Positions 2,041 through 47,782 of a DNA stretch of 64,000 bases are shown piece by piece. The stretch covers positions 19,959 to 83,958 of the forward strand of contig CAYILA010000003.1 of NCBI GenBank assembly GCA_964364265.1, written 5' to 3'. A program made the position numbers and the translations under genes. How positions within the stretch are numbered: the stretch's first letter is position 1; the number at the start of each line of letters is the position of its first letter. The notes under the pieces were generated by a model. The model saw only the letters and a list, made by a program, of their open reading frames with translations. It was not told the DNA's origin and did not search any database. The stretch is from an uncultured Candidatus Saccharibacteria bacterium. GTDB taxonomy: Bacteria > Patescibacteriota > UBA1384 > XYA2-FULL-43-10 > 1-14-0-10-43-13.

Positions 2041-3273
2041 TTATGGCAAGAAGTGTCTAAAGAAGTTCCTGGTTTTGTCAATAAATCCACCCATTCCAGG
2101 TATATCAAAATCGAAGGAACTCCCTCCCTCGTTCTTATTTTTACCCCATAACATCAACCCTATGGCCGTAGCATATACTGGATCATCAAGCTTGTCAATA
2201 AGGCCGGAAATTTCTAATATCGGTCGACCAACTTGAGCTGGCAGATGCATGGTAGATTTGGTCAACTCAACCACGCCTTCGATTTTTGCCCCGCCTCCGG
2301 TCAGAACTACACCCGCCGGAAGAGCGCCGTCACGGTCTATTCGCGTCAATCTCTCCTTTACGATCATTAGTATTTCATTCAATCTCGCTTCGATAATCTC
2401 CGAAATATATTTGACATTAGCCGTACCCTCTTCGTTTTTATCGAGCTTTCTAAGGTCGATTTCTTCCTTCTCATCGATTTTATCAGGAATAGCGTAGCCG
2501 TATTTTAGCTTAATTAGGTCGGCAAGATCGATATTGGTTCGTAGTCCAATGGCGATATCGTTTGTGATATGGATTGAACCGATCGGAATGACTTCGGAAA
2601 TAATCATATCTCCTTCCTCGAATACCGAGTATGAAGTTGATCCGGCGCCGATATCGATCAGGACTACGCCGATATCCTGTTGTCGCTTCGAGAGGAGAAG
2701 CCCGGCTGTTGAAATTGGAGAATAAACCAGTCCGGAGATACTGACTCCGGCTTGGGTAACGGCCCTAGTTAAGCTTTTTAAAGCATTGGTTGACGTTGAA
2801 ATAACACTGGCAATGACCTCGAGGCGGATGCCGGTCATACCGACCGGATCCTTGATTTCTTCATGACCATCGATTATGAAGTATCTGGGAATGACATGAA
2901 GAATTTCCCGATTTGGTTGGCTCGGTGTCGTTTTAGTGGACTCGATTACTTTTTCGACATCAACCTCGCCTATTTCACCATCTGCCTTGGAAACAGCGAT
3001 TACTCCTTTGGTATCCTCTGATTGGATATGGGCCCCCGATATTCCGACAAAGGCGTTTGCAACTTTCATACCGGACATTTTTTCAGCTTCAACCAACGAG
3101 GCGGAGATTGCAGAAACGGTCTCCTCCACATCAACAATAACGCCCCTCCTGATGCCTTGATTTAAGCTCGAACCGAGTCCAATTATATCGGTGATGCCGT
3201 TTTCGAATTTACCGATACAGGTGATGACTTTCGTGGTGCCGATATCAATTCCGACCGACAAATTATTTCGCAT
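2041..3273 (-). CDS. ftsA: Cell division protein FtsA (actin-like ATPase)
   Basis: IDIGTTKV N-terminus, actin-fold motifs (LTGGGA), and position immediately upstream of ftsZ. Confidence 0.9.
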   Translation of the reverse strand: MRNNLSVGIDIGTTKVITCIGKFENGITDIIGLGSSLNQGIRRGVIVDVEETVSAISASLVEAEKMSGMKVANAFVGISGAHIQSEDTKGVIAVSKADGEIGEVDVEKVIESTKTTPSQPNREILHVIPRYFIIDGHEEIKDPVGMTGIRLEVIASVISTSTNALKSLTRAVTQAGVSISGLVYSPISTAGLLLSKRQQDIGVVLIDIGAGSTSYSVFEEGDMIISEVIPIGSIHITNDIAIGLRTNIDLADLIKLKYGYAIPDKIDEKEEIDLRKLDKNEEGTANVKYISEIIEARLNEILMIVKERLTRIDRDGALPAGVVLTGGGAKIEGVVELTKSTMHLPAQVGRPILEISGLIDKLDDPVYATAIGLMLWGKNKNEGGSSFDFDIPGMGGFIDKTRNFFRHFLP

Positions 3274-3380
3274 TAAAACCCTCCAAACATATCATCAAAA
3301 ACAAAATATGGCAGATTTTGCTTTATTTCAAACTCTCATTTACTCTATTTTATTACAGACAGGTATCTTTAAGCAAGTGT

Positions 3381-3776
3381 TTAGACAAATATTTGTTTTA
3401 TGTAGGGCAGAAAAACCAGTAACGCTACAACTACTGCAATAACGGCGCTGATTAGAACGGCGCCGGCCATAGCGTCCTTAACCCTGGCGATAATATGGTG
3501 GTCTTCGGGGTGGCAGACATCGCAGACCTTTTCGATTGCCGTGTTGATAATTTCAATTGCGAAAACTAAAACGACGGCGATGAATAGAACGGCGGCCTCT
3601 ATTCGGGTAACCCCTAAAACATAAGCGAAGATGCCGACCAAAACCGTGGCAACCGCGTGAATTCTGGCATTTTTCTCTGAAATTAACAGAAAAATAACCC
3701 CCCTAAACGCATAATGAAAGCTTTTAAACATTTTTCGGATTGTAAACTTATTATAATTCATATTTATAGTCCGCAA
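3381..3776 (-). CDS. Diacylglycerol/undecaprenol kinase family membrane protein (DgkA-like)
   Basis: Small 3-TM protein with a FKSFHYAFRGV N-terminal amphipathic helix and the E..A.D conserved core. The true start is possibly the internal MFKSF. Confidence 0.65.
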   Translation of the reverse strand: MRTINMNYNKFTIRKMFKSFHYAFRGVIFLLISEKNARIHAVATVLVGIFAYVLGVTRIEAAVLFIAVVLVFAIEIINTAIEKVCDVCHPEDHHIIARVKDAMAGAVLISAVIAVVVALLVFLPYIKQIFV

Positions 3777-38478: not shown

Positions 38479-39657
38479 TTACCGTGATAACTGTTTGCCG
38501 CAGAGAACCTGGGCTAGCTCGGCAAGCGACCTGCCACGGAGATACCGATCGCTGATCTCCATTGCTGCTGTTGAAGCAGTGATGAAATCAGCTTCTTCTT
38601 GCGAGATTTCTGCGATACAAGCGAGTGCGGAATAGATATCTGTTTCATCTGTGGTGCTCTCGAGAAGTATCGCGAAGTCATTCCGATCTCGCGTAATCCG
38701 ACAGAGCTCCATGAAAAGCGAATCAACGCTCTCTGGATTTGACAGAAGGGCTTCTCGAGCAACTGTGATATCGCTCTGGTCAGCGCTGATTTTGGCGAGT
38801 GCGAGAAGGTTAAAGTACCTTCTGAAATCCGCCGACCATCCCTTTTCAATTTCTTGAACTGGGATAGCCGTTATTTCAGCTCTTGCTCTTGCGATATCCC
38901 GAGGGTCACGAGTAGCTTTGGCGATCTTGAGCCAATGTTCCCACGGCTCGCAATCGAATCTCTCTGCGATAGCGCGAGCTGCCAGGATGTCTTCATTTGC
39001 CTGGCTAAACTCGTAAACAGCGAGGTATTCCGAGAGTTGGTAGCAGGGAACCTTTTCCTTGGCTGCCATTTTCCGCGCTTCATCAATCTTGCCCATCGCC
39101 GCCGTGGCTCGTACGCGTATGACGCGCACCACACCTTGTTTGTATGATTGCCGAACAATCCGATCAGCCAGTTTCCTGACCATGTCGGGTTGTGATGTTT
39201 CGGCTATCGTTTCCAAAACGACGAACATGGCGATCTGGCGCTGCACCTTTTGCTCGTCCTCGTCTACATAATCGTCTTCGTCGCCAGTGGTCTTGGCAGT
39301 AAGCGAGGCAAGTTTCAAAGCGTATCCGAGATCTTTCTTTGCCCACCCCCTTATGATGCTCTGTCGTGCGAACACAGCCTCATCGTGGCCTTCAGGACTG
39401 ATCTTCTCGGCAATTTCCTCCGCAACCGCCAGATCACCCGCCAAGGCAAGCGCCTCGACGATGTCGGCTCGAACCTCATCAGCTTCGCTGGGACTCGGGT
39501 CGGAGCTTCTCGTGAGAACAATCCGGCAACCCAGAAAATCCCCGATAGTGTTCTTCCCCAAATGTTCAGCCCGCTGATGGACGATGTCGCCAACTTGGAG
39601 CATCGCCATCTCGATAAGCTCCTCAAACAACCTCTTCTTCCAAAGCAGTTTGTCCAT
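38479..39657 (-). CDS. Hypothetical alpha-helical repeat protein (HEAT/TPR-like) in a GC-elevated islet
   Basis: 392 aa, Ala/Glu/Arg-rich helical repeats, no catalytic motif. Local GC is clearly above flanks. Both strands are riddled with long overlapping ORFs, the signature of high-GC DNA. Confidence 0.45.
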   Translation of the reverse strand: MDKLLWKKRLFEELIEMAMLQVGDIVHQRAEHLGKNTIGDFLGCRIVLTRSSDPSPSEADEVRADIVEALALAGDLAVAEEIAEKISPEGHDEAVFARQSIIRGWAKKDLGYALKLASLTAKTTGDEDDYVDEDEQKVQRQIAMFVVLETIAETSQPDMVRKLADRIVRQSYKQGVVRVIRVRATAAMGKIDEARKMAAKEKVPCYQLSEYLAVYEFSQANEDILAARAIAERFDCEPWEHWLKIAKATRDPRDIARARAEITAIPVQEIEKGWSADFRRYFNLLALAKISADQSDITVAREALLSNPESVDSLFMELCRITRDRNDFAILLESTTDETDIYSALACIAEISQEEADFITASTAAMEISDRYLRGRSLAELAQVLCGKQLSR

Positions 39658-40638: not shown

Positions 40639-41676
40639 ATGTCGGATCTTGACACCTCTTCATTGTTTAAATACGACTCTTCAAGAATGATTGATCAAGT
40701 TGAGAGTTTTTCAACTGATTGTATAGACGCCTGGCAACAAGCCGAAAATCTGATACTTCCCTCCTATTATGTCAAAGCCAAAAATATCCTGTTGCTTGGA
40801 ATGGGCGGATCTGGTGTATCAAACGACTTCATTGCCGACTTGCTTTACGGTACCGACCTTTGCATTAATTCAATCCATGGTTACGACATCCCCGGCTTAG
40901 TGGATGAAAATACCTTGGTCATTGCCAATTCATATTCAGGAAATACCGAGGAAGTATTGGCTGGATTTATTTCCGCATACAAGAGAAAAGCTAAATTGAT
41001 TGCCATTACCACCGGTGGCAAACTTGAATCGCTAGCCGAAAAATACAGAGCGCCCCTATTTAAGTACAATTATCCTTCAACCCCGAGAATGGCTGTGCCT
41101 TTTACTTTCGTTTCATTACTTTCGATATTTAAAAAGCTGGGACATTTAGAAATTGATAATTCAATTTTTGACCTTCTTGAAAAAGTCAATCGGCTGACTC
41201 AAAATTACAGACACGAAATCCCAGTCGCCCAAAATCCAGCCAAAGCCCTGGCTCAAAAATTGGAAGGAAATATTCCGATTATTTATTCTAGCTTCTCCTT
41301 AAAATCTCTTGGTTTTCGTGCCAAAAGTCAGTTTAATGAAAATTCAAAAAACCTTTCATTCAGCGAATATTATCCCGAACTAAATCATAATTCGATACAG
41401 GGATATCGTTATCCAAAAGCGCCGGTATTCGTAATATCCGTTGAATCAAATTTAGATGATTCACAGAGTCAAAAACGAGCCAATCTTACAGAAGAAGTTC
41501 TGCGTAAATCAAATATTCCCTGCGAGAGAATCAATTTTTCCTCTGTTACAAATCCAGTTGTAGAAATTTTGAGCTTTATTCAATTCTTTAACTATGTTTC
41601 GATTTATCTTGCGGTTATTAATATGCAAGATCCCACTTCTATGCCTGATATAACTACATTTAAGAGCAAACTTTAG
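40639..41676 (+). CDS. Bifunctional phosphoglucose/phosphomannose isomerase (SIS domain; archaeal-type PGI/PMI)
   Basis: SIS phosphosugar-binding LLGMGGSGVSNDF, the second half typical of the bact-PGI_C family, size about 345 aa. Confidence 0.6.
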   Translation: MSDLDTSSLFKYDSSRMIDQVESFSTDCIDAWQQAENLILPSYYVKAKNILLLGMGGSGVSNDFIADLLYGTDLCINSIHGYDIPGLVDENTLVIANSYSGNTEEVLAGFISAYKRKAKLIAITTGGKLESLAEKYRAPLFKYNYPSTPRMAVPFTFVSLLSIFKKLGHLEIDNSIFDLLEKVNRLTQNYRHEIPVAQNPAKALAQKLEGNIPIIYSSFSLKSLGFRAKSQFNENSKNLSFSEYYPELNHNSIQGYRYPKAPVFVISVESNLDDSQSQKRANLTEEVLRKSNIPCERINFSSVTNPVVEILSFIQFFNYVSIYLAVINMQDPTSMPDITTFKSKL

Positions 41677-41695: not shown

Positions 41696-43282
41696 GTGTT
41701 TTTAGGCAGACAAAAAAAACCTGTTGTTCTTGTAATTTTGGATGGTTGGGGCGTCGCCCCGTCTTGGGGAGGCAACGCTATCTCTCAAGCCAATACCAAG
41801 TTTTACGACAAGGTCTGGCAACAAGCTCCCAAAACGACTCTATTGGCATCCGGTGAAGCGGTCGGCTTGCCGGTCAGCGCTCCGGGCAATTCGGAAGCCG
41901 GTCACCTCAATATTGGCGCCGGACATGTCGTCCATCAGGACCAGACTTTGATCGATGCCCAGATCGACAACCAATCCTTCTACAGCAACCCAAAAATCCT
42001 CAATGCGATCGAACACGCCACGCAACACAATTCAAACATTCATCTGATGGGTTTGCTCTCAAAAACCGGAACCCACAGTCATATCAAACATCTTTTTGCC
42101 CTTTTGACGCTGTTCAAAGCTAAAAATTTTAGCCGCGTCTTTATTCACTTGTTTACGGATGGTCGCGATTCCGATCCGATGTCCGGCATCGAAATGGTAG
42201 ACGAAGTCGAACACAAAATAGCCGAGATCGGTGTCGGTAAGATATCGTCAATTGCCGGCCGTTTTTATGCCATGGATCGAGACAACCGTTGGGGCCGTGT
42301 CGCCAGAGCATACAATCTACTAGTCAAGGGCGAGGGTAATATATTTGAATCTCCCAAGACCGCGATTACATCGTCTTACTCCCAAGGCATAACCGATGAG
42401 TTTATTGAACCTCGATTAATATCAAACAAAGGTCAACAGATTACATCGATCAAAAGCAATGATAGTATTATATTTTTCAATTTCAGAAGCGACAGAGCCA
42501 AGGAAATCACCAGAGCATTTTTAGATGAACATTTACCGGAGTTTCCGGATCGCATGAAGTTAAGCAATCTCTATTTTGCAACCTTTGTGATTTATGATGA
42601 TCACTTACTATCCGAACAGATATTTTCTCCCGAGAAGATCGTGTACCCGTTAGCCCGAGTATTATCGGAAAATAACTTGAAACAATTGCACATCGCCGAA
42701 ACTGAAAAATATCCTCATGTCACATACTTTTTAAATGGCGGGACCGAAAAACCTTTTCCGGGTGAAAGCCGCGCAATGATTCCTTCTCCCCAAAAATTCA
42801 AAACTTACGATTATGTCCCAAAAATGAACGCTCCTAAATTAACCGCTCTTATCGTATCCACAATCAAAAAAAACATATATGATTTTACAGTTGTAAATTT
42901 TGCCAATACTGATATGGTCGGACATACTGGCAATCTTGGATCAGCAATAATGGCGGTTGAGTGCGTTGACGAATGCGTTTCTAAGATTGCAGATGAAATC
43001 ATAAGCAAGGATGGAATAATGCTAATTGTTGGCGATCATGGCAATGTCGAGCAAATGATTAATCCCCAAACCGGGGACCCAGATACTGAACACTCAACAA
43101 ATCCCGTCCCTTTTATTATCGTATCTAATGACCCAACTATTAATAAACTAAAAATGCAAGCCGACGGAATATTGGCTTCCGTTTCACCAACAATGCTAGA
43201 TTTGATGCAGATTAAAAAACCGGCTGATATGAGAAACAATTCAATTATTATTAAAGAAATCAATGTCCCAATCGCTAAATAA
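41696..43282 (+). CDS. gpmI: 2,3-bisphosphoglycerate-independent phosphoglycerate mutase
   Basis: ILDGWG metal site, catalytic-Ser motif GNSEAGHLNIGAG, HLFTDGRD, VGDHGN. Confidence 0.95.
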   Translation: MFLGRQKKPVVLVILDGWGVAPSWGGNAISQANTKFYDKVWQQAPKTTLLASGEAVGLPVSAPGNSEAGHLNIGAGHVVHQDQTLIDAQIDNQSFYSNPKILNAIEHATQHNSNIHLMGLLSKTGTHSHIKHLFALLTLFKAKNFSRVFIHLFTDGRDSDPMSGIEMVDEVEHKIAEIGVGKISSIAGRFYAMDRDNRWGRVARAYNLLVKGEGNIFESPKTAITSSYSQGITDEFIEPRLISNKGQQITSIKSNDSIIFFNFRSDRAKEITRAFLDEHLPEFPDRMKLSNLYFATFVIYDDHLLSEQIFSPEKIVYPLARVLSENNLKQLHIAETEKYPHVTYFLNGGTEKPFPGESRAMIPSPQKFKTYDYVPKMNAPKLTALIVSTIKKNIYDFTVVNFANTDMVGHTGNLGSAIMAVECVDECVSKIADEIISKDGIMLIVGDHGNVEQMINPQTGDPDTEHSTNPVPFIIVSNDPTINKLKMQADGILASVSPTMLDLMQIKKPADMRNNSIIIKEINVPIAK

Positions 43283-44765
43283 AAATATAATTCTTTGCCT
43301 TACAGATGGTATTGGAATTTCTTCCGCTTGGCAGGGAAATGTTTTGAATATGGGCAAGTCAAATATAATCGGCCGCTTTCTTAAAGAATACCCTTCCGAA
43401 CTCCTAAAAACCGATATTGAAGGGATTACTAAAATCGGAAATCAGTTGGACACTAACTCGTCCTACCAAAGAATATTTACTGGAAAAAATGTCCTGCCGT
43501 CATATGACCGAATAAATAAATCGATATCGGATAGCTCCCATTATCACGATTTGTTTGAAATGCCGATCAAACATCATTCCTCGCTTCATCTGGTCGGCAC
43601 GCTATCGGCTGATAATTTTTATGGCTCGCAAAAACATTTGGAAGAGATACTAAAACAAGCTAAAGGAAGAGGAATATTTAATTTGAACATTCATCTTCTG
43701 ATTGATAATTCATTTAAAACGAAGGAGGAACTTCTTTCTAAATTACAGGAACTGGAGAACTTCACTACAAAAATAAAACTGGGGCGGGTCGTAACGATAG
43801 CCGGCCGTGACAATCTTCATCAAGATATCAATCTAAAATATTTCAAGGCCCTGCTTGCTTGTTTTGTCGGCGGCAAAACCAATAAATCCCTATCCCCTGA
43901 ACAGATAATTAATTTATCCGATAAAAAAGACGGTTTTTCAAAACTGGCTCCTACCTCAATTGTCGAGGACGGATATCAAAAAGGCCGAATTTCCGGATAT
44001 GATACTGTATTATTTTTTGACTATAACAATGATGATTATGATTATTTAATCAATAAACTTGTATTTGGCTCCGGTCTTTTCGGATTGAAAATCCCAAAGT
44101 CATTAAACATTTTCACTCTTTCAACCTCTAAAGTTGATAAGATAAAAAGCATATTTCCAGCCGAAAATAAAAAAGATATCTTTGACCAGATTTCAAGAGA
44201 CAATAAGATTGCCCTAATTTCAGAGATATCAAGATACGCTTACCTAAAACCCTTTACTGAAAATAATAAGATCGATCCGACATTTATTGATTATGAAAAC
44301 AATGAAAACAATTTTTATCTTAAACTATTGTCCGATCTTAAATCAAAATCAGAGAAGTACGAGTTGACAATTTTGGTAATTCCGACGCTTGATAATGCGG
44401 TTATCTCCGACTCAATGGAAAAAACCATTAAATCCTTAAATCTTTACTATCAATTTCTCGAGGATGTTGAAAAATACATTTTGGAAAAAGATTTATTATT
44501 CATATTGACTTCCAGTTACGGCAGAATTAATAACTTAAATAATAAACGAGATAATTTAATCTTGCCCAATTTTGATCCGGTTCCATTTATTGTCTTGTCA
44601 AAATACAAATCAGAAAGCGCTAATTTGCAAACCGAACCGGAAAATAGCATCGCTTCCAATTATTTAAATTTAAAACACGACATCTTAGATGTGGCGCCGA
44701 CCTTGCTTCAGATGTTTGGTTTGGATATTCCCGATAGTCTGACCGGAACAAGTCTCTTGAATTGA
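43263..44765 (+). CDS. Divergent iPGM-like paralog lacking catalytic Ser and metal-binding His/Asp (probable pseudoenzyme)
   Basis: Collinear with gpmI (LTDGIG, HLVGTLS, IAGRDN, PVPFIV, APTLLQMFGL). GNSEAGH is replaced by GNQLDTNSSYQ and VGDHGN by LTSSYGR. Overlaps the gpmI 3' end by 20 nt. Confidence 0.7.
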   Translation: MSQSLNKNIILCLTDGIGISSAWQGNVLNMGKSNIIGRFLKEYPSELLKTDIEGITKIGNQLDTNSSYQRIFTGKNVLPSYDRINKSISDSSHYHDLFEMPIKHHSSLHLVGTLSADNFYGSQKHLEEILKQAKGRGIFNLNIHLLIDNSFKTKEELLSKLQELENFTTKIKLGRVVTIAGRDNLHQDINLKYFKALLACFVGGKTNKSLSPEQIINLSDKKDGFSKLAPTSIVEDGYQKGRISGYDTVLFFDYNNDDYDYLINKLVFGSGLFGLKIPKSLNIFTLSTSKVDKIKSIFPAENKKDIFDQISRDNKIALISEISRYAYLKPFTENNKIDPTFIDYENNENNFYLKLLSDLKSKSEKYELTILVIPTLDNAVISDSMEKTIKSLNLYYQFLEDVEKYILEKDLLFILTSSYGRINNLNNKRDNLILPNFDPVPFIVLSKYKSESANLQTEPENSIASNYLNLKHDILDVAPTLLQMFGLDIPDSLTGTSLLN

Positions 44766-44803: not shown

Positions 44804-45124
44804 GGGCCCATAGCTTAGTTTCAGCCAGAGGCTGATCGTCCTCTGGACGAGGTAGGGGAAAATGAATTATGTATACTTTATGAAAAGTCTGCGTAACGGC
44901 AAGGTTTATGTCGGCAGAACGACGAATAAGCCTGACAAGCGAGTTTTGGAACATAATAATGGCAGTAATGTTTGGAGTAGACACAACAAACCTTTTGAAT
45001 TAATCTATTTTGAGGAATATTATTGTGAAATAGATTGTGCGAAAAGAGAAGCCTTCTATAAAACAGGAATCGGCAAGAAGGTGAAAAAGGCAATCATCGA
45101 AACGTTTATAACAGAATAATATAT
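44804..45124 (+). mobile_element. tRNA-associated insertion: 17-bp duplicate of tRNA-Ala 5' end plus GIY-YIG ORF
   Basis: GGGCCCATAGCTTAGTT at 44804-44820 is identical to the first 17 nt of the tRNA-Ala at 45125. The 304 bp between them carry a YhbQ-like GIY-YIG ORF. Confidence 0.55.
44862..45119 (+). CDS. GIY-YIG nuclease superfamily protein (YhbQ/UPF0213-like, 85 aa)
   Basis: VYFMKSLRNGKVYVGRTTNKPDKRVLEHNNG matches GIY...YVG.T.n..rR..eHn. A conserved Glu lies in REAFYK. Confidence 0.8.
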   Translation: MNYVYFMKSLRNGKVYVGRTTNKPDKRVLEHNNGSNVWSRHNKPFELIYFEEYYCEIDCAKREAFYKTGIGKKVKKAIIETFITE

Positions 45125-45200
45125 GGGCCCATAGCTTAGTTGGTAGAGCGCCTCCATGGCATGGAGGAGGTCAGGAGTTCAAGTCTCCTTGGGTCCACCA
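45125..45200 (+). tRNA. tRNA-Ala (anticodon GGC), CCA encoded
   Basis: 76 nt cloverleaf, G3:U70 Ala identity pair, anticodon loop AUGGCAU, T-arm AGGAG-TTCAAGT-CTCCT. Confidence 0.9.
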
Positions 45201-45214
45201 AGAAATTAAAATAT

Positions 45215-47782
45215 ATGAAAAAGTATGAGTTCTCTCAAATAGATAAAAAGTGGCAGGAATACTGGAAGAGTACTAGTTATGGCGTCGCCAAAGATGAGGG
45301 TGGGAATAAACATTACCATCTAATCGAGTTTCCTTATCCTTCGGGCGAGGGTCTGCATGTCGGTCATTGTATGGGTTATGGGGCATCTGATGCATACTGC
45401 CGGATGAAAAGGATGCAAGGTTTCAATGTAATGTTCCCGATCGGTTGGGACGCTTTTGGTCTTCCGACTGAAAATTACGCTATTAAGACCGGCATCCATC
45501 CCCGCCTTGCCACCAAACAAAGTATTGATACATTTAAGAAACAAATCGAATCCCTAGGCTACTCTTTTGACTGGAAAAGAGAGATAAACACCACCGATCC
45601 GGAATACTATAAATGGACACAATGGATTTTTTTGCAGTTTTACAAACACGGCATTGTAGACCCTTCGACAGGCTCAGGGCAAGCTGGAAAATTGATTGAG
45701 GTCGCCGATGATGATACTACCACCCCTCGCCTTGCCTACCAAGCCGAAATGCCGATTAACTGGTGTCCTTCTTGTAAAATAGGGCTAGCCAATGAAGAAG
45801 TTATCGCCGGAAAATGCGAGCGCTGTGGAACCGAAACAATCAAAAAAATGCAGAAGCAGTGGCTGTTACGTATTACGGCGTATGCAGACCGCTTAATTTC
45901 CGACCTTGATACGGTTGATTATTTAGACAAGATCAAAACTCAACAAGTAAATTGGATCGGGCGATCTACTGGAACAAATATTCGCTTTACTGTCATTCCT
46001 GCGAACGCAGGAATCTTAAAGATCCCTGATCAAGTCAGGGATGACAATATTGTCGAAATTTTTACCACCCGTACCGATACTTTATTCGGTTGTACCTATA
46101 TTGTTTTGTCACCCGAGCATCCAATTATTGCAAAACTAAAAACAAATATTGCCAATTGTAATAAAGTTAATCAATATATTGAAGATTCTGCTAAAAAGTC
46201 CGACATGGAACGAACGGAATTGGCCAAAGAGAAAACCGGAGTCAAACTGGAAAGTATTAAAGCCATAAATCCGATTAACAATGAAGAGATCGATGTTTGG
46301 ATTGCCGATTATGTACTCGCTTCATACGGAACCGGCGCAGTAATGGCAGTTCCCGCTCACGACGAACGAGATTTTGAATTCGCCAAGAAATACGATATTG
46401 ATATTAAGCAAGTTATTACCGGCGATAATTATAATGACAATAAAGCTTTTACGGAATACGGCATATTAATTCATTCGGGTGGATTTGACGGCTTGACAAG
46501 TAAAGAAGCACAAGGGAAAATCACTATAAAACTAAAGGAAATTGGTGCCGGAGATTTTACTGTTAATTACAAACTTCGGGACTGGATTTTCTCCCGCCAG
46601 CATTATTGGGGCGAACCGATCCCAATTATTCATTGTGATAAATGCGGTACAATTCCAATGGATGAAAATGATTTGCCGCTAACTTTGCCGGAAGTGGAAA
46701 ATTACCAGCCAACCGTTACCGGCGAATCACCATTGGCTGCTATTCCAAATTGGGTCAACACAACTTGTCCGGAGTGCGGCGGTCCCGCAAAAAGAGAGAC
46801 CGACACTATGCCGAACTGGGCCGGCTCTAGCTGGTATTTCTTGCGTTACTGCGATCCGAAAAATATGAATGAATTTGCTTCGATGGACAAACTCGAATAT
46901 TGGTTAAATCCTGGTTTAGATGCCAGCGAGGCCCCGCGTAGCTCGAAGAGCGGAGGTGGGGTTGATATCTACAATGGTGGGATGGAACACACAACTTTGC
47001 ATTTGTTATATTCCCGCTTCTGGCACAAGTTTTTGTATGATTTAGGGAAAGTTCCTTCGAACGAGCCGTACCAAAAAAGAATCGCTCATGGTATAATACT
47101 GGGTCCCGACGGACAGAAGATGAGTAAGTCCCGCGACAATGTCATCAATCCGGATAAAATCGTAGAGAAGTACGGTTCCGATACTTTGCGTACCTATATT
47201 ATGTTTATCGGTCCATACGACCAGGAGTCCGCTTGGAACACTTCCAGCATCCAGGGAGTCTACCGCTTCCTCAACCGACTTTGGAATAATTATGATTTAG
47301 TCAATAACCAATCGGATGAAAAAGATCTATTAATTAAATTGAACCAAACCATCGATTGTGTTACCGCGGACTTGGAATCATTTAATTTAAATACGGTCGT
47401 CTCCAAATTGATGGAAATGAATAATATGATTGAAAAAATCGGTCATATATCTAAGGATTCGTATTCTAAATATCTTAAACTTATTTTTCCCGTAGCACCC
47501 CACATCTCATCCGAATTATTTGAAATGTTGGAAAAAGGCAAAATTGAAGCAAAAGAATGGCCTAAAACCGATTTAAATTATCTTTCCGCCGACCAGATTG
47601 AAATAGTCGTCCAAATCAACGGCAAGGTCAGGGCTAAAATGATGCTCGATGCCAATATTTCCGATCAGGAGATGGTTGATTTCGCCCTTAATTTACCCGA
47701 AGTGAAAGAATATATCGAAGACAAGAAGATAGTAAAGATAATCCCAGTCGCCAAGAAACTGGTCAGTATCGTAATCGCTTGA
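45215..47782 (+). CDS. leuS: Leucyl-tRNA synthetase
   Basis: HVGHCMGY (HIGH), KMSKS, and the CP1 editing domain. Start set at the ATG 14 nt after the tRNA; the track's 45140 start overlaps the tRNA. Confidence 0.95.
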   Translation: MKKYEFSQIDKKWQEYWKSTSYGVAKDEGGNKHYHLIEFPYPSGEGLHVGHCMGYGASDAYCRMKRMQGFNVMFPIGWDAFGLPTENYAIKTGIHPRLATKQSIDTFKKQIESLGYSFDWKREINTTDPEYYKWTQWIFLQFYKHGIVDPSTGSGQAGKLIEVADDDTTTPRLAYQAEMPINWCPSCKIGLANEEVIAGKCERCGTETIKKMQKQWLLRITAYADRLISDLDTVDYLDKIKTQQVNWIGRSTGTNIRFTVIPANAGILKIPDQVRDDNIVEIFTTRTDTLFGCTYIVLSPEHPIIAKLKTNIANCNKVNQYIEDSAKKSDMERTELAKEKTGVKLESIKAINPINNEEIDVWIADYVLASYGTGAVMAVPAHDERDFEFAKKYDIDIKQVITGDNYNDNKAFTEYGILIHSGGFDGLTSKEAQGKITIKLKEIGAGDFTVNYKLRDWIFSRQHYWGEPIPIIHCDKCGTIPMDENDLPLTLPEVENYQPTVTGESPLAAIPNWVNTTCPECGGPAKRETDTMPNWAGSSWYFLRYCDPKNMNEFASMDKLEYWLNPGLDASEAPRSSKSGGGVDIYNGGMEHTTLHLLYSRFWHKFLYDLGKVPSNEPYQKRIAHGIILGPDGQKMSKSRDNVINPDKIVEKYGSDTLRTYIMFIGPYDQESAWNTSSIQGVYRFLNRLWNNYDLVNNQSDEKDLLIKLNQTIDCVTADLESFNLNTVVSKLMEMNNMIEKIGHISKDSYSKYLKLIFPVAPHISSELFEMLEKGKIEAKEWPKTDLNYLSADQIEIVVQINGKVRAKMMLDANISDQEMVDFALNLPEVKEYIEDKKIVKIIPVAKKLVSIVIA

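What the first reader, a model, noticed from the sequence alone, without database searches (positions are those of the whole stretch)
43263..44765. Tandem, divergent iPGM paralog that has lost catalytic Ser and Mn-binding residues (candidate pseudoenzyme)
The 500-aa ORF is collinear with the upstream gpmI (DG.G, HL.G.LS, IAGR, PVPFI, APT.L.M.GL blocks are retained). The phosphoserine motif GNSEAGH is replaced by GNQLDTNSSYQ, HLFTDGRD by HLLIDNSF, and VGDHGN by LTSSYGR. The ORF is intact and overlaps the gpmI stop by 20 nt, which suggests co-translation. A conserved scaffold without chemistry suggests a regulatory, binding or structural role, or a new substrate specificity, rather than a decaying pseudogene.
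Basis: partly seen in the sequence, partly recalled or inferred. Interest (0 to 1): 0.6.

Follow-up and report, generated by a model that had tools for sequence, protein, structure and literature searches.

The report
Dead iPGM paralog beside active iPGM
Next to its working phosphoglycerate mutase gene, this tiny-genome groundwater bacterium keeps a second full-length copy that has lost the chemistry but kept the shape; related bacteria keep the same pair, so the dead copy very probably has a non-catalytic job, most likely linked to the live enzyme.

Summary
ORF 43263-44765 (+) encodes a 500-aa protein collinear with the upstream canonical GpmI (41696-43282) at 21% identity. It overlaps the gpmI stop by 20 nt and keeps only 4 of 16 catalytic, metal or substrate residues. 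It is not a decaying pseudogene: a stop-free frame of this length has P ~1e-16, AlphaFold gives pLDDT 92.8, and the model matches the full iPGM fold (TM 0.75). It is not an orphan either. An exhaustive search found at least 60-73 distinct clusters of equally degenerate iPGM-like proteins. In all 9 lineages where the upstream DNA could be read, the dead copy lies directly downstream of a canonical iPGM (gap -20 to +4 nt in 8 of 9, mostly no SD motif), inside a PGI-gpmI-X central-carbon operon of Patescibacteria. The dead copies form one clade, share sister pairs with their partners' tree, and evolve about 3.7x faster. None of 78 single-copy, mostly non-CPR control loci with readable flanks has a second copy. 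Other Patescibacteria carry two fully canonical tandem iPGMs. No description was found in the searchable literature. Best reading: a conserved pseudoenzyme, translationally coupled to iPGM and probably acting as its non-catalytic partner. The physical partnership is inferred, not shown.

The parts
43263..44765 (+). Degenerate iPGM paralog (PAR/X), 500 aa, full two-domain iPGM fold without the catalytic apparatus
   Evidence: ORF; 21% id to GpmI; PF06415 59 bits, TIGR01307 102 < 331; 4 of 16 functional residues kept; AlphaFold pLDDT 92.8, pTM 0.91; Foldseek 1o98/1ejj TM 0.75, E 1e-32
41696..43282 (+). Canonical gpmI (2,3-BPG-independent phosphoglycerate mutase), the presumed active partner
   Evidence: TIGR01307 607 bits; PF01676 + PF06415; 16 of 16 functional residues. 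Belongs to a 99/100-bootstrap clade (C) whose members all carry a degenerate copy downstream
43263..43282 (+). 20-nt overlap of the PAR start (ATG 43263) with the gpmI 3' end (TAA 43280-43282); no SD-like motif upstream, so a translational-coupling junction
   Evidence: Sequence. Junctions in the 9 lineages: -20, +4, -4, -17, -14, +58, +2, +1, +1 nt, with no SD-like motif in 8 of 9
43263..43349 (+). N-terminal 29 residues (first beta-strand and the DGIGISSAWQGN loop), omitted by the public gene call, which starts at M30 (43350)
   Evidence: P0001 is 471 aa and matches residues 30-500. Residues 7-29 align with the family motif xGxGLSxSWxGNA. Strand 9-14; pLDDT 96 for residues 11-20
43437..43469 (+). 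GNQLDTNSSYQ (res. 59-69), replacing the phosphoserine motif GNSEAGH
43692..43715 (+). HLLIDNSF (res. 144-151), replacing HLFTDGRD (substrate-binding Arg153/Asp154 lost; H144 and D148 kept)
44505..44525 (+). LTSSYGR (res. 415-421), replacing (I/V)GDHGN (metal ligands Asp444/His445 lost). S417 is a family-specific conserved residue
   Evidence: S417 in 59 of 63 degenerate proteins against Ala in canonical
40639..41676 (+). Bifunctional phosphoglucose/phosphomannose isomerase, first gene of the conserved PGI-gpmI-X array
   Evidence: PF10432 125 bits, NF006425 264 bits. The same order occurs in L002, L004/5, L006 and L009

Best explanation
The ORF encodes a pseudoenzyme, a folded but catalytically dead paralog of cofactor-independent phosphoglycerate mutase. 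Selection keeps it directly behind the active gpmI in one clade of Patescibacteria. It cannot do iPGM chemistry, because it has no Ser nucleophile in context, 2 of 7 metal or nucleophile positions, and 1 of 8 substrate-contact residues. Its start codon lies inside or within a few nucleotides of the gpmI stop, usually without its own ribosome-binding site. Ribosomes finishing gpmI would therefore reinitiate on it, and the two proteins would be made together. The most likely function is as a non-catalytic partner of the neighbouring iPGM, a 'prozyme-like' stabilising or regulatory subunit that uses the conserved iPGM scaffold as an interaction module. Shown: homology, loss of the catalytic residues, retained fold, a conserved family, conserved tandem position and tight junctions, shared ancestry with the partner, and restriction to Patescibacteria. 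Inferred: translational coupling, physical association with GpmI, and any effect on its activity.
For: Catalytic loss. The family as a whole keeps only 15 of 54 near-invariant canonical columns, mostly Gly, Pro or structural. Former His ligands become Tyr/Phe and the Ser most often becomes Pro, so the pocket is filled in, not rebuilt. Selection for a folded protein: open frame P ~1e-16; pLDDT 92.8 from a 57-sequence family alignment; full iPGM fold; site entropies correlate with canonical iPGM, r = 0.40, p = 3e-19; at least 60-73 separate 50%-identity clusters of intact proteins. Link to gpmI: 9 of 9 lineages have the dead copy immediately downstream on the same strand. Junction gaps are -20 to +4 nt in 8 of 9, with no SD-like motif in 8 of 9. 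Partner clade C 99/100 and X clade 100/100 bootstrap, with shared sister pairs L006+L003, L004+L002 and L090+L008; mirror-tree r = 0.59, p = 0.026. All 9 sampled C-clade genomes retain X even though C-C identity is only 49-69%. C and X share a rare Trp (W24/W23) that is absent from 54 U and D copies. Controls: 78 single-copy, mostly non-CPR loci with readable flanks have no second copy. Precedent for dead paralogs that activate their live partner: PMC5201418, PMC3663545.
Against: Bacterial iPGM is described as active as a monomer (PMC2964296). The partner GpmI keeps every catalytic residue and shows only 10 clade-specific substitutions, fewer than clade U's 13, so nothing suggests it needs help. 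X evolves 3.7x faster than its partner (23% against 58% mean identity), which is fast for an obligate interface. The mirror-tree signal is what shared vertical descent alone would give. dN/dS could not be computed, because no relatives above 38% identity are available. Monophyly of X could be inflated by long-branch attraction. The window's protein departs from its own family at two well-conserved positions (D396Y, E423N).
Confidence: 0.42

Rival explanations
1. Independent neofunctionalisation: the scaffold is kept as a binding protein or sensor for a metabolite, or as an enzyme with a new, metal-independent site. It would act on its own and sit in the glycolytic operon only for co-regulation.
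For: A few polar positions near the old active site are conserved in the dead family: D/E at the D12 position in 49 of 63, S20 in 53 of 63, S417 in 59 of 63, Q214 in 56 of 63, R at the K336 position in 31 of 63. Intermediate paralogs exist that keep either the substrate Args (P0056, P0069, P0092) or the metal site (P0061), so partial functions are plausible within the wider family. The model adopts the closed conformation (best TM to substrate-bound 1o98).
Against: None of the 16 ligand-contacting positions is conserved across the family except D148. No new cluster of His, Cys, Asp, Arg or Lys replaces them. His -> Tyr/Phe and Ser -> Pro look like pocket filling. The family's 23% mean identity argues against a precise ligand site. 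No match to any other enzyme family in Pfam or NCBIfam.
Confidence: 0.25
2. Moonlighting, structural or surface role unrelated to glycolysis: a fast-evolving scaffold protein, for example in cell-cell contact of an episymbiont, that happens to derive from iPGM.
For: Very fast sequence evolution with a retained fold; restriction to Patescibacteria. Moonlighting of glycolytic enzymes is well known (general knowledge; PMC8256278 listed).
Against: The N-terminus is the first beta-strand of the fold and carries no signal peptide or anchor. A strictly conserved position behind gpmI and tight coupling would be unnecessary for an unrelated role. There is no repeat, adhesin or membrane domain.
Confidence: 0.1
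3. A non-functional remnant: a duplicated gpmI that is decaying and kept open only transiently, or because its translation is needed to express downstream genes.
For: Lower GC at all codon positions than its neighbours (34.7% against 42%) and enrichment in N, K, I and S, as expected under relaxed constraint in an AT-biased genome. A 3.7x faster rate than the partner. dN/dS not measurable.
Against: A 500-codon open frame has P ~1e-16 by chance. The same holds in 9 of 9 syntenic lineages and in at least 60 further clusters that share only ~23% identity yet all keep length, collinearity and fold-determining residues. The AlphaFold confidence comes from family covariation. Patescibacteria genomes are small (a 687-kb contig carries P0039), and inert DNA is not expected to persist over such divergence (inference from general knowledge of reduced genomes).
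Confidence: 0.05
4. A weakly active iPGM isozyme using T64, S66 or S67 as nucleophile with an altered metal site.
For: MAFFT places Thr64 under the catalytic Ser, and Thr is the nucleophile in phosphopentomutase (fold hits). D15 and D377 (D12/D403 equivalents) remain.
Against: 5 of 7 metal or nucleophile positions and 7 of 8 substrate-contact residues are gone. The Thr is not conserved in the family (P/E/S/R/K). TIGR01307 scores 102 bits against a cut-off of 331.
Confidence: 0.03

Closest known systems
Cofactor-independent phosphoglycerate mutase (iPGM, GpmI/GpmM; TIGR01307; PDB 1EJJ/1O98, Geobacillus stearothermophilus)
   Same: Same two-domain architecture, length and collinear sequence. Foldseek TM 0.75, E 1e-32. 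PF06415 above its cut-off. Structural Gly, Pro, His and Asp positions conserved.
   Different: Nucleophile Ser, 5 of 7 metal or nucleophile positions and 7 of 8 substrate contacts replaced. TIGR01307 score is one third of the cut-off. It sits as a second gene behind a bona fide iPGM and evolves 3.7x faster.
Trypanosomatid 'prozymes': catalytically dead paralogs of AdoMetDC and deoxyhypusine synthase that heteromerise with and activate the live enzyme (PMC5201418, PMC3663545)
   Same: A paralog of a metabolic enzyme that lost its catalytic residues, is retained by selection, and coexists with the active copy. This is the functional model proposed here.
   Different: In trypanosomatids the complex and the activation were shown biochemically, and the active partner is itself impaired or autoinhibited. 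Here no complex is shown, the partner looks fully competent, iPGM is normally a monomer, the organisms are bacteria, and the genes form an overlapping operon pair.
Tandem fully canonical iPGM pairs (U/D) in other Patescibacteria (Falkowbacteria, Parcubacteria and others), found here
   Same: Same phylum-level group and the same head-to-tail arrangement with short or overlapping junctions. iPGM duplication is otherwise rare in bacteria.
   Different: Both copies keep 16 of 16 functional residues. The U and D clades lack the W24 signature shared by C and X, so this is probably a separate duplication.
Other alkaline-phosphatase-superfamily members (phosphopentomutase, archaeal ApgM, alkaline phosphatase, sulfatases)
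   Same: Shared core fold of the metal-binding domain (Foldseek hits at E 1e-6 to 1e-9).
   Different: Much weaker structural match (TM 0.3-0.5). They lack the iPGM_N insertion domain that X keeps, and all retain a nucleophile plus a bimetal site, which X lacks.

Membership tests
iPGM enzyme (GpmI, EC 5.4.2.12; TIGR01307 equivalog) | Whole-protein score at or above the curated TIGR01307 cut-off (330.65 bits) | tested here: not met
   102.1 bits for X against 606.9 bits for the upstream GpmI
iPGM enzyme (GpmI, EC 5.4.2.12; TIGR01307 equivalog) | Catalytic Ser (Ser62) in the GNSE(V/A)GH motif | tested here: not met
   Motif replaced by GNQLDTNSSYQ. The aligned residue is T64 (or Q61) and the column is not conserved in the degenerate family
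iPGM enzyme (GpmI, EC 5.4.2.12; TIGR01307 equivalog) | Two Mn2+ sites: D12, S62, D444, H445 and D403, H407, H462 | tested here: not met
   Only D15 (D12) and D377 (D403) remain. H407 -> I, D444 -> S, H445 -> Y, H462 -> P/gap
iPGM enzyme (GpmI, EC 5.4.2.12; TIGR01307 equivalog) | Phosphoglycerate-binding residues H123, R153, D154, R185, R191, R261, R264, K336 | tested here: not met
   Only R182 (R185) is kept. The others are Y, S, F, D, N, D, R
iPGM enzyme (GpmI, EC 5.4.2.12; TIGR01307 equivalog) | Two-domain fold (phosphatase domain plus inserted transferase domain) | tested here: met
   pLDDT 92.8, pTM 0.91; TM 0.75 to 1o98 and 1ejj over the full length. PF06415 59.3 bits, above the cut-off of 27
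iPGM enzyme (GpmI, EC 5.4.2.12; TIGR01307 equivalog) | Interconversion of 3-PG and 2-PG | not testable with these tools
   Needs an enzyme assay. Predicted absent from the residue losses
Pfam Metalloenzyme superfamily domain (PF01676) | Score at or above the gathering threshold of 24.3 bits | tested here: not met
   22.5 bits, E 9e-5. Some family members do pass in precomputed Pfam
Pseudoenzyme partner of an active paralog ('prozyme'-type) | Paralog of an active enzyme encoded in the same genome | tested here: met
   Adjacent canonical gpmI; E 1e-19 between the two
Pseudoenzyme partner of an active paralog ('prozyme'-type) | Loss of the catalytic residues with retention of the fold | tested here: met
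Pseudoenzyme partner of an active paralog ('prozyme'-type) | Maintained by selection across lineages | tested here: met
   Intact ORFs in 9 of 9 syntenic lineages and in at least 60 clusters; open frame P ~1e-16; heterogeneous site conservation. A formal dN/dS was not possible
Pseudoenzyme partner of an active paralog ('prozyme'-type) | Physical complex with the active paralog | not testable with these tools
Only indirect hints: coupling junctions, mirror-tree r = 0.59, pI anticorrelation r = -0.65
Pseudoenzyme partner of an active paralog ('prozyme'-type) | Changes the activity or stability of the active paralog | not testable with these tools
   Requires biochemistry
Decaying pseudogene | Frameshifts or in-frame stops, here or in relatives; loss in related genomes | tested here: not met
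   No stop in 500 codons. All 9 syntenic relatives and the wider family are intact and full length

The most novel reading that the evidence does not exclude
In one clade of Patescibacteria the textbook-monomeric iPGM works as a heteromer with a dead paralog that stabilises or gates it. That would be a bacterial, glycolytic 'prozyme' made by termination-reinitiation from the same mRNA. On this reading the two-active-copy tandems in sister lineages could be a parallel or earlier heteromeric state, so paralog heteromerisation would be a recurrent feature of central metabolism in these ultra-small genomes.
Probability: 0.25. Interest if true: 0.75.

Novelty: new variant of a known kind. Interest (0 to 1): 0.58.

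Why it matters
Patescibacteria have some of the smallest bacterial genomes, yet a whole clade spends 1.5 kb on a dead copy of a glycolytic enzyme, and other clades keep two live copies. Published surveys say iPGM paralogs are rare and confined to large genomes (PMC2964296). Public databases label these proteins either 'hypothetical' or, wrongly, '2,3-bisphosphoglycerate-independent phosphoglycerate mutase', which inflates metabolic reconstructions of CPR genomes. If the dead copy is a partner subunit, it would be a rare bacterial example of the prozyme principle in core carbon metabolism, and it would change how iPGM regulation is viewed in uncultivated episymbionts. The pair is easy to test, since it needs only two soluble proteins and a standard coupled assay.

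Tried and rejected
1. Word-index homolog search with X, with the family alignment and with P0039. These returned only X itself or canonical iPGMs, so the index misses this fast-evolving family. The exhaustive HMMER search was what revealed it.

2. The search for related loci with family alignments A2 and A3. It failed because there is no stretch conserved enough to search with.

3. The search for related loci with X alone in genomes and metagenomes. No relatives were found. I then used the conserved GpmI as bait, which worked.

4. dN/dS. This was abandoned because no X pair exceeds 38% identity, so synonymous sites are saturated.

5. Heterodimer prediction with a GGGGS-linked GpmI-X fusion and paired rows (A4 and A5).

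6. Foldseek against afdb50. The library was unavailable.

7. Origin of X from the D copy of U/D pairs. NJ placement and HMM scores are inconclusive. The shared W24 points instead to the C lineage, so the origin is unresolved.

8. A new active site. I looked for family-specific conserved polar clusters and found only S20, Q214 and S417, with aromatic replacements of the His ligands, so this was rejected as the main reading.

9. Charge or pI trend as a functional clue. There is no consistent direction, only a weak C/X anticorrelation.

10. Rfam and tRNA scans of the window. They found nothing in or next to the gene except tRNA-Ala downstream.

11. Literature. No description of a degenerate iPGM or of tandem iPGMs in CPR was found.
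Full report
**1. What is in the window**

The window is identical to a groundwater metagenome contig (ENA ERZ1292627, Hainich well H51, 0.1 µm fraction). Its gene content is typical of Patescibacteria/CPR. The region reads: Sua5 (−), tRNA-Leu (−), PGI/PMI 40639-41676 (+), gpmI 41696-43282 (+), the ORF in question 43263-44765 (+), a small GIY-YIG gene 44862-45119 (+), tRNA-Ala, then LeuRS.

The upstream gene is an ordinary cofactor-independent phosphoglycerate mutase. It scores 607 bits on TIGR01307 (cut-off 331) and has every catalytic, metal and substrate residue.

**2.

- The second ORF is 500 codons and starts at ATG 43263, 20 nt before the end of gpmI.
- It aligns end to end with GpmI at 21% identity (E 1e-19).
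- It passes Pfam's iPGM_N threshold but reaches only 102 bits on TIGR01307, and it falls just under the Metalloenzyme domain threshold.
- In alignments with 20 and then about 175 iPGM-type proteins, it keeps Asp12, Arg185, Asp403 (Geobacillus numbering) and the first Asp of the DGRD block.
- It has replaced Ser62, His66, His123, Arg153, Asp154, Arg191, Arg261, Arg264, Lys336, His407, Asp444, His445 and His462.
- MAFFT puts a Thr under the catalytic Ser. That column has no consensus in the family (Pro is commonest), and the metal ligands needed to activate a nucleophile are gone.

**3. It is a protein under selection, not a decaying gene**

- At this composition one codon in 14 would be a stop, so 500 open codons have P ~1e-16. 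The other five frames carry 23-56 stops.
- AlphaFold2, given only an alignment of degenerate relatives, returns a confident model (pLDDT 92.8, pTM 0.91).
- The model superposes over its full length on iPGM crystal structures, best on the closed, substrate-bound Geobacillus enzyme (TM 0.75, E 1e-32). Phosphopentomutase and alkaline phosphatase match far more weakly.
- The public gene call starts at Met30. The first 29 residues align with the family N-terminus and are modelled as the first β-strand with high confidence, so ATG 43263 is the real start.

**4. It belongs to a large, previously unnamed family**

The word-indexed search found nothing but itself and canonical iPGMs. The exhaustive HMMER scan of 1.8 billion cluster representatives gave 827 hits.

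- The top tier scores 120-160 bits at 26-31% identity, above any canonical iPGM, and consists of proteins that have also lost the active site.
- 73 of the best ~175 sequences keep at most 3 of the 7 metal or nucleophile residues.
- These proteins share only about 20-30% identity with each other.
- Compared with 69 canonical sequences, 60 strictly degenerate ones keep just 15 of 54 near-invariant columns. Those 15 are Gly, Pro or structural His, Asp and Asn positions.
- Their site-by-site variability still correlates with that of real iPGMs (r = 0.40, p = 3e-19). This is constraint on the fold, not on the chemistry.
- Former His ligands are mostly Tyr or Phe, the nucleophile is most often Pro, and Asp12 stays Asp or Glu in 78% of members.
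- There is a small family-specific signature: S20, Q214, F/Y246 and S417.
- Source databases call these proteins 'hypothetical' or, by transfer, 'iPGM'.

**5. The pairing with a live iPGM is conserved**

The degenerate gene sits immediately downstream of a canonical iPGM on the same strand in every lineage where the upstream DNA is available. These are the window, the loci for P0034, P0035, P0036, P0039, P0054 and P0075, and two loci recovered with GpmI as bait (a Candidatus Berkelbacteria genome, L010, and metagenome contig L090).

- The recurrent order is PGI-gpmI-X, often followed by PTA/acetate kinase or ADP-forming acetyl-CoA synthetase plus pyruvate:ferredoxin oxidoreductase. This is a central-carbon operon.
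- The distance from the gpmI stop to the X start is −20, +4, −4, −17, −14, +58, +2, +1 and +1 nt. Eight of nine X starts have no Shine-Dalgarno-like motif. This is the classic layout for termination-reinitiation coupling. The coupling is inferred, not shown.

**6. Evolutionary pattern**

In a neighbour-joining tree of 105 sequences (502 columns, 100 bootstraps):

- The nine partner iPGMs form a clade (99/100).
- The nine degenerate copies form a clade (100/100), with the caveat that long branches attract each other.
- The two clades share sister pairs: L006+L003, L004+L002 and L090+L008.
- Pairwise distances in the two sets correlate (r = 0.59, permutation p = 0.026).
- Partners are 58% identical on average and degenerate copies 23%, a corrected-distance ratio of 3.7.

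The pair has therefore been inherited together since before these lineages split, the dead copy has never been lost in the sampled members, and it evolves much faster.

A rare Trp (W24 in GpmI, W23 in X) occurs in all nine partners, in their nearest single-copy relatives, and in 41 of 63 degenerate proteins. It occurs in none of 54 U or D copies. This suggests X arose by duplication within the partner's own lineage. HMM-profile scoring and the NJ placement do not settle this.

**7. Wider context found on the way**

- Of 170 loci examined, 43 have two iPGM-like genes. All are tandem and on Patescibacteria-type contigs.
- 78 single-copy, mostly non-CPR loci (Firmicutes, Deltaproteobacteria and others) with room on both sides have no second copy.
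- In 27 loci both tandem copies keep all 16 functional residues.
- Intermediate paralogs also exist. Some have the metal site intact but the substrate residues changed (P0061, also downstream of a canonical iPGM). Others keep the substrate arginines but have lost the metal site (P0056, P0069, P0092).
- A 2010 survey reported that iPGM is active as a monomer and that iPGM paralogs are rare (4 of 702 genomes) and typical of large genomes (PMC2964296). The Patescibacteria pattern runs the other way.

**8. How it most likely works**

*Shown:* a folded iPGM scaffold without nucleophile, metals or substrate site; selection for the fold; obligatory co-location and co-inheritance with an active iPGM; junctions suited to coupled translation.

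*Inferred:* the two proteins are made together and act together. The dead copy would serve as a non-catalytic partner (stabiliser, regulator or scaffold) of iPGM, by analogy with the trypanosomatid prozymes (PMC5201418, PMC3663545). I put this at about 0.4.

*Against it:* there is no evidence of a complex. iPGM is normally monomeric. The partner looks self-sufficient. X evolves fast.

*Rivals:*
- An independent ligand-binding or new-function protein (0.25).
- An unrelated structural or moonlighting role (0.1).
- A non-functional remnant (0.05).
- A residual iPGM (0.03).

The remainder is unassigned.

**9. Comparison and membership**

X is a homolog of iPGM and keeps its fold. It fails every functional criterion that defines the enzyme family: the equivalog score, the nucleophile, the bimetal site and the substrate site. 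It should therefore not be annotated as iPGM.

It meets the testable criteria of a pseudoenzyme paralog: paralogy, catalytic loss and selective retention. The two criteria that define a prozyme-type partner, complex formation and an effect on activity, cannot be tested with these tools.

**10. Novelty and verdict**

I found no description of a degenerate iPGM, or of tandem iPGMs in CPR, in the searchable literature. The kind of thing is known: a dead paralog kept beside its live enzyme. This instance, its family and its phyletic pattern appear to be new, so I rate it a new variant of a known kind.

Interest is 0.58. The finding is solid, conserved and easy to test, and it corrects a systematic mis-annotation. 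Its mechanism is still inferential.

Noticed in passing
Loci L011, L013, L020, L021, L024, L028, L034, L039, L060, L066, L073, L078, L091, L093, L101, L104, L108, L112, L114, L117, L118, L120, L157, L162, L165, L166, L168: Two tandem iPGM genes that both keep all 16 catalytic, metal and substrate residues. The upstream 'U' and downstream 'D' copies are about 45% identical, and the U clade has 90/100 bootstrap support. This is common in Patescibacteria (Falkowbacteria, Parcubacteria and others) and absent from the non-CPR controls. It contradicts the published view that iPGM paralogs are rare and confined to large genomes. Why tiny genomes keep two live copies is unexplained.
   Followed up: partly
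P0061 (locus L171:1771-3333), P0056 (L170:1316-2863), P0069, P0092: Intermediate iPGM paralogs. P0061 keeps the full metal site but only 3 of 8 substrate residues, and sits downstream of a canonical iPGM and upstream of PTA. P0056, P0069 and P0092 keep the substrate arginines but have lost the metal site. The wider family therefore spans a continuum from active to fully dead.
   Followed up: partly
L022:1885-3474 (Candidatus Falkowbacteria MAG): The upstream iPGM copy is split into two overlapping ORFs (1885-2671 and 2649-3474). This is either a genuine frameshifted pseudogene or an assembly error.
   Followed up: no
window 45125-45200 and 45140-47782: tRNA-Ala(GGC) overlaps the 5' end of the mechanically listed LeuRS ORF (TTG at 45140). 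The real LeuRS start must lie downstream of the tRNA, probably at the MKKYEF methionine.
   Followed up: no
window 38479-39657 (-): A 392-aa ORF with no Pfam match, in a stretch of higher GC (46% against about 40%), lying between the sortase gene and tRNA-Leu/Sua5. The syntenic loci L004 and L005 have no gene at this place, so it may be a lineage-specific insertion next to a tRNA.
   Followed up: no
window 44862-45119 (+); L004:7702-7962; L008:3875-4198: A stand-alone ~85-107 aa GIY-YIG protein lies directly after the degenerate paralog in the window and in the P0039 locus, and beside gpmI (opposite strand) in L008. This recurrent neighbour has no known role.
   Followed up: no
window 43263-43349: The public gene call for this protein (P0001, 471 aa) starts at Met30 and cuts off the homologous first beta-strand. 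The ATG at 43263 is supported by the family alignment and the structure model.
   Followed up: yes
nine C/X pairs (window, L002, L003, L004, L006, L008, L009, L010, L090): The isoelectric points of partner and dead copy tend to be opposite. C is 8.5-8.9 with X 5.3-6.3 in L008 and L090; C is 5.9-6.5 with X 6.4-8.7 elsewhere. Pearson r = -0.65, p = 0.056, n = 9, and the points are not phylogenetically independent. This is a weak hint of charge complementarity.
   Followed up: partly
L021, L028, L039, L060, L066, L078, L085: These contigs are labelled 'uncultured Gammaproteobacteria' (TPA MAGs). Six of the seven carry CPR-type tandem iPGM pairs (L085 is single-copy), and the pairs included in the tree cluster within the Patescibacteria U and D clades. 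The taxon labels are probably wrong.
   Followed up: no
window 43263-44765, residues Y396 and N423: The window's protein departs from its own degenerate family at two of that family's best-conserved positions: Asp in 56 of 63 becomes Tyr, and Glu in 54 of 63 becomes Asn. Its GC content is also lower than its neighbours' at all three codon positions (34.7% against 42%). It is among the most diverged members of the family.
   Followed up: partly
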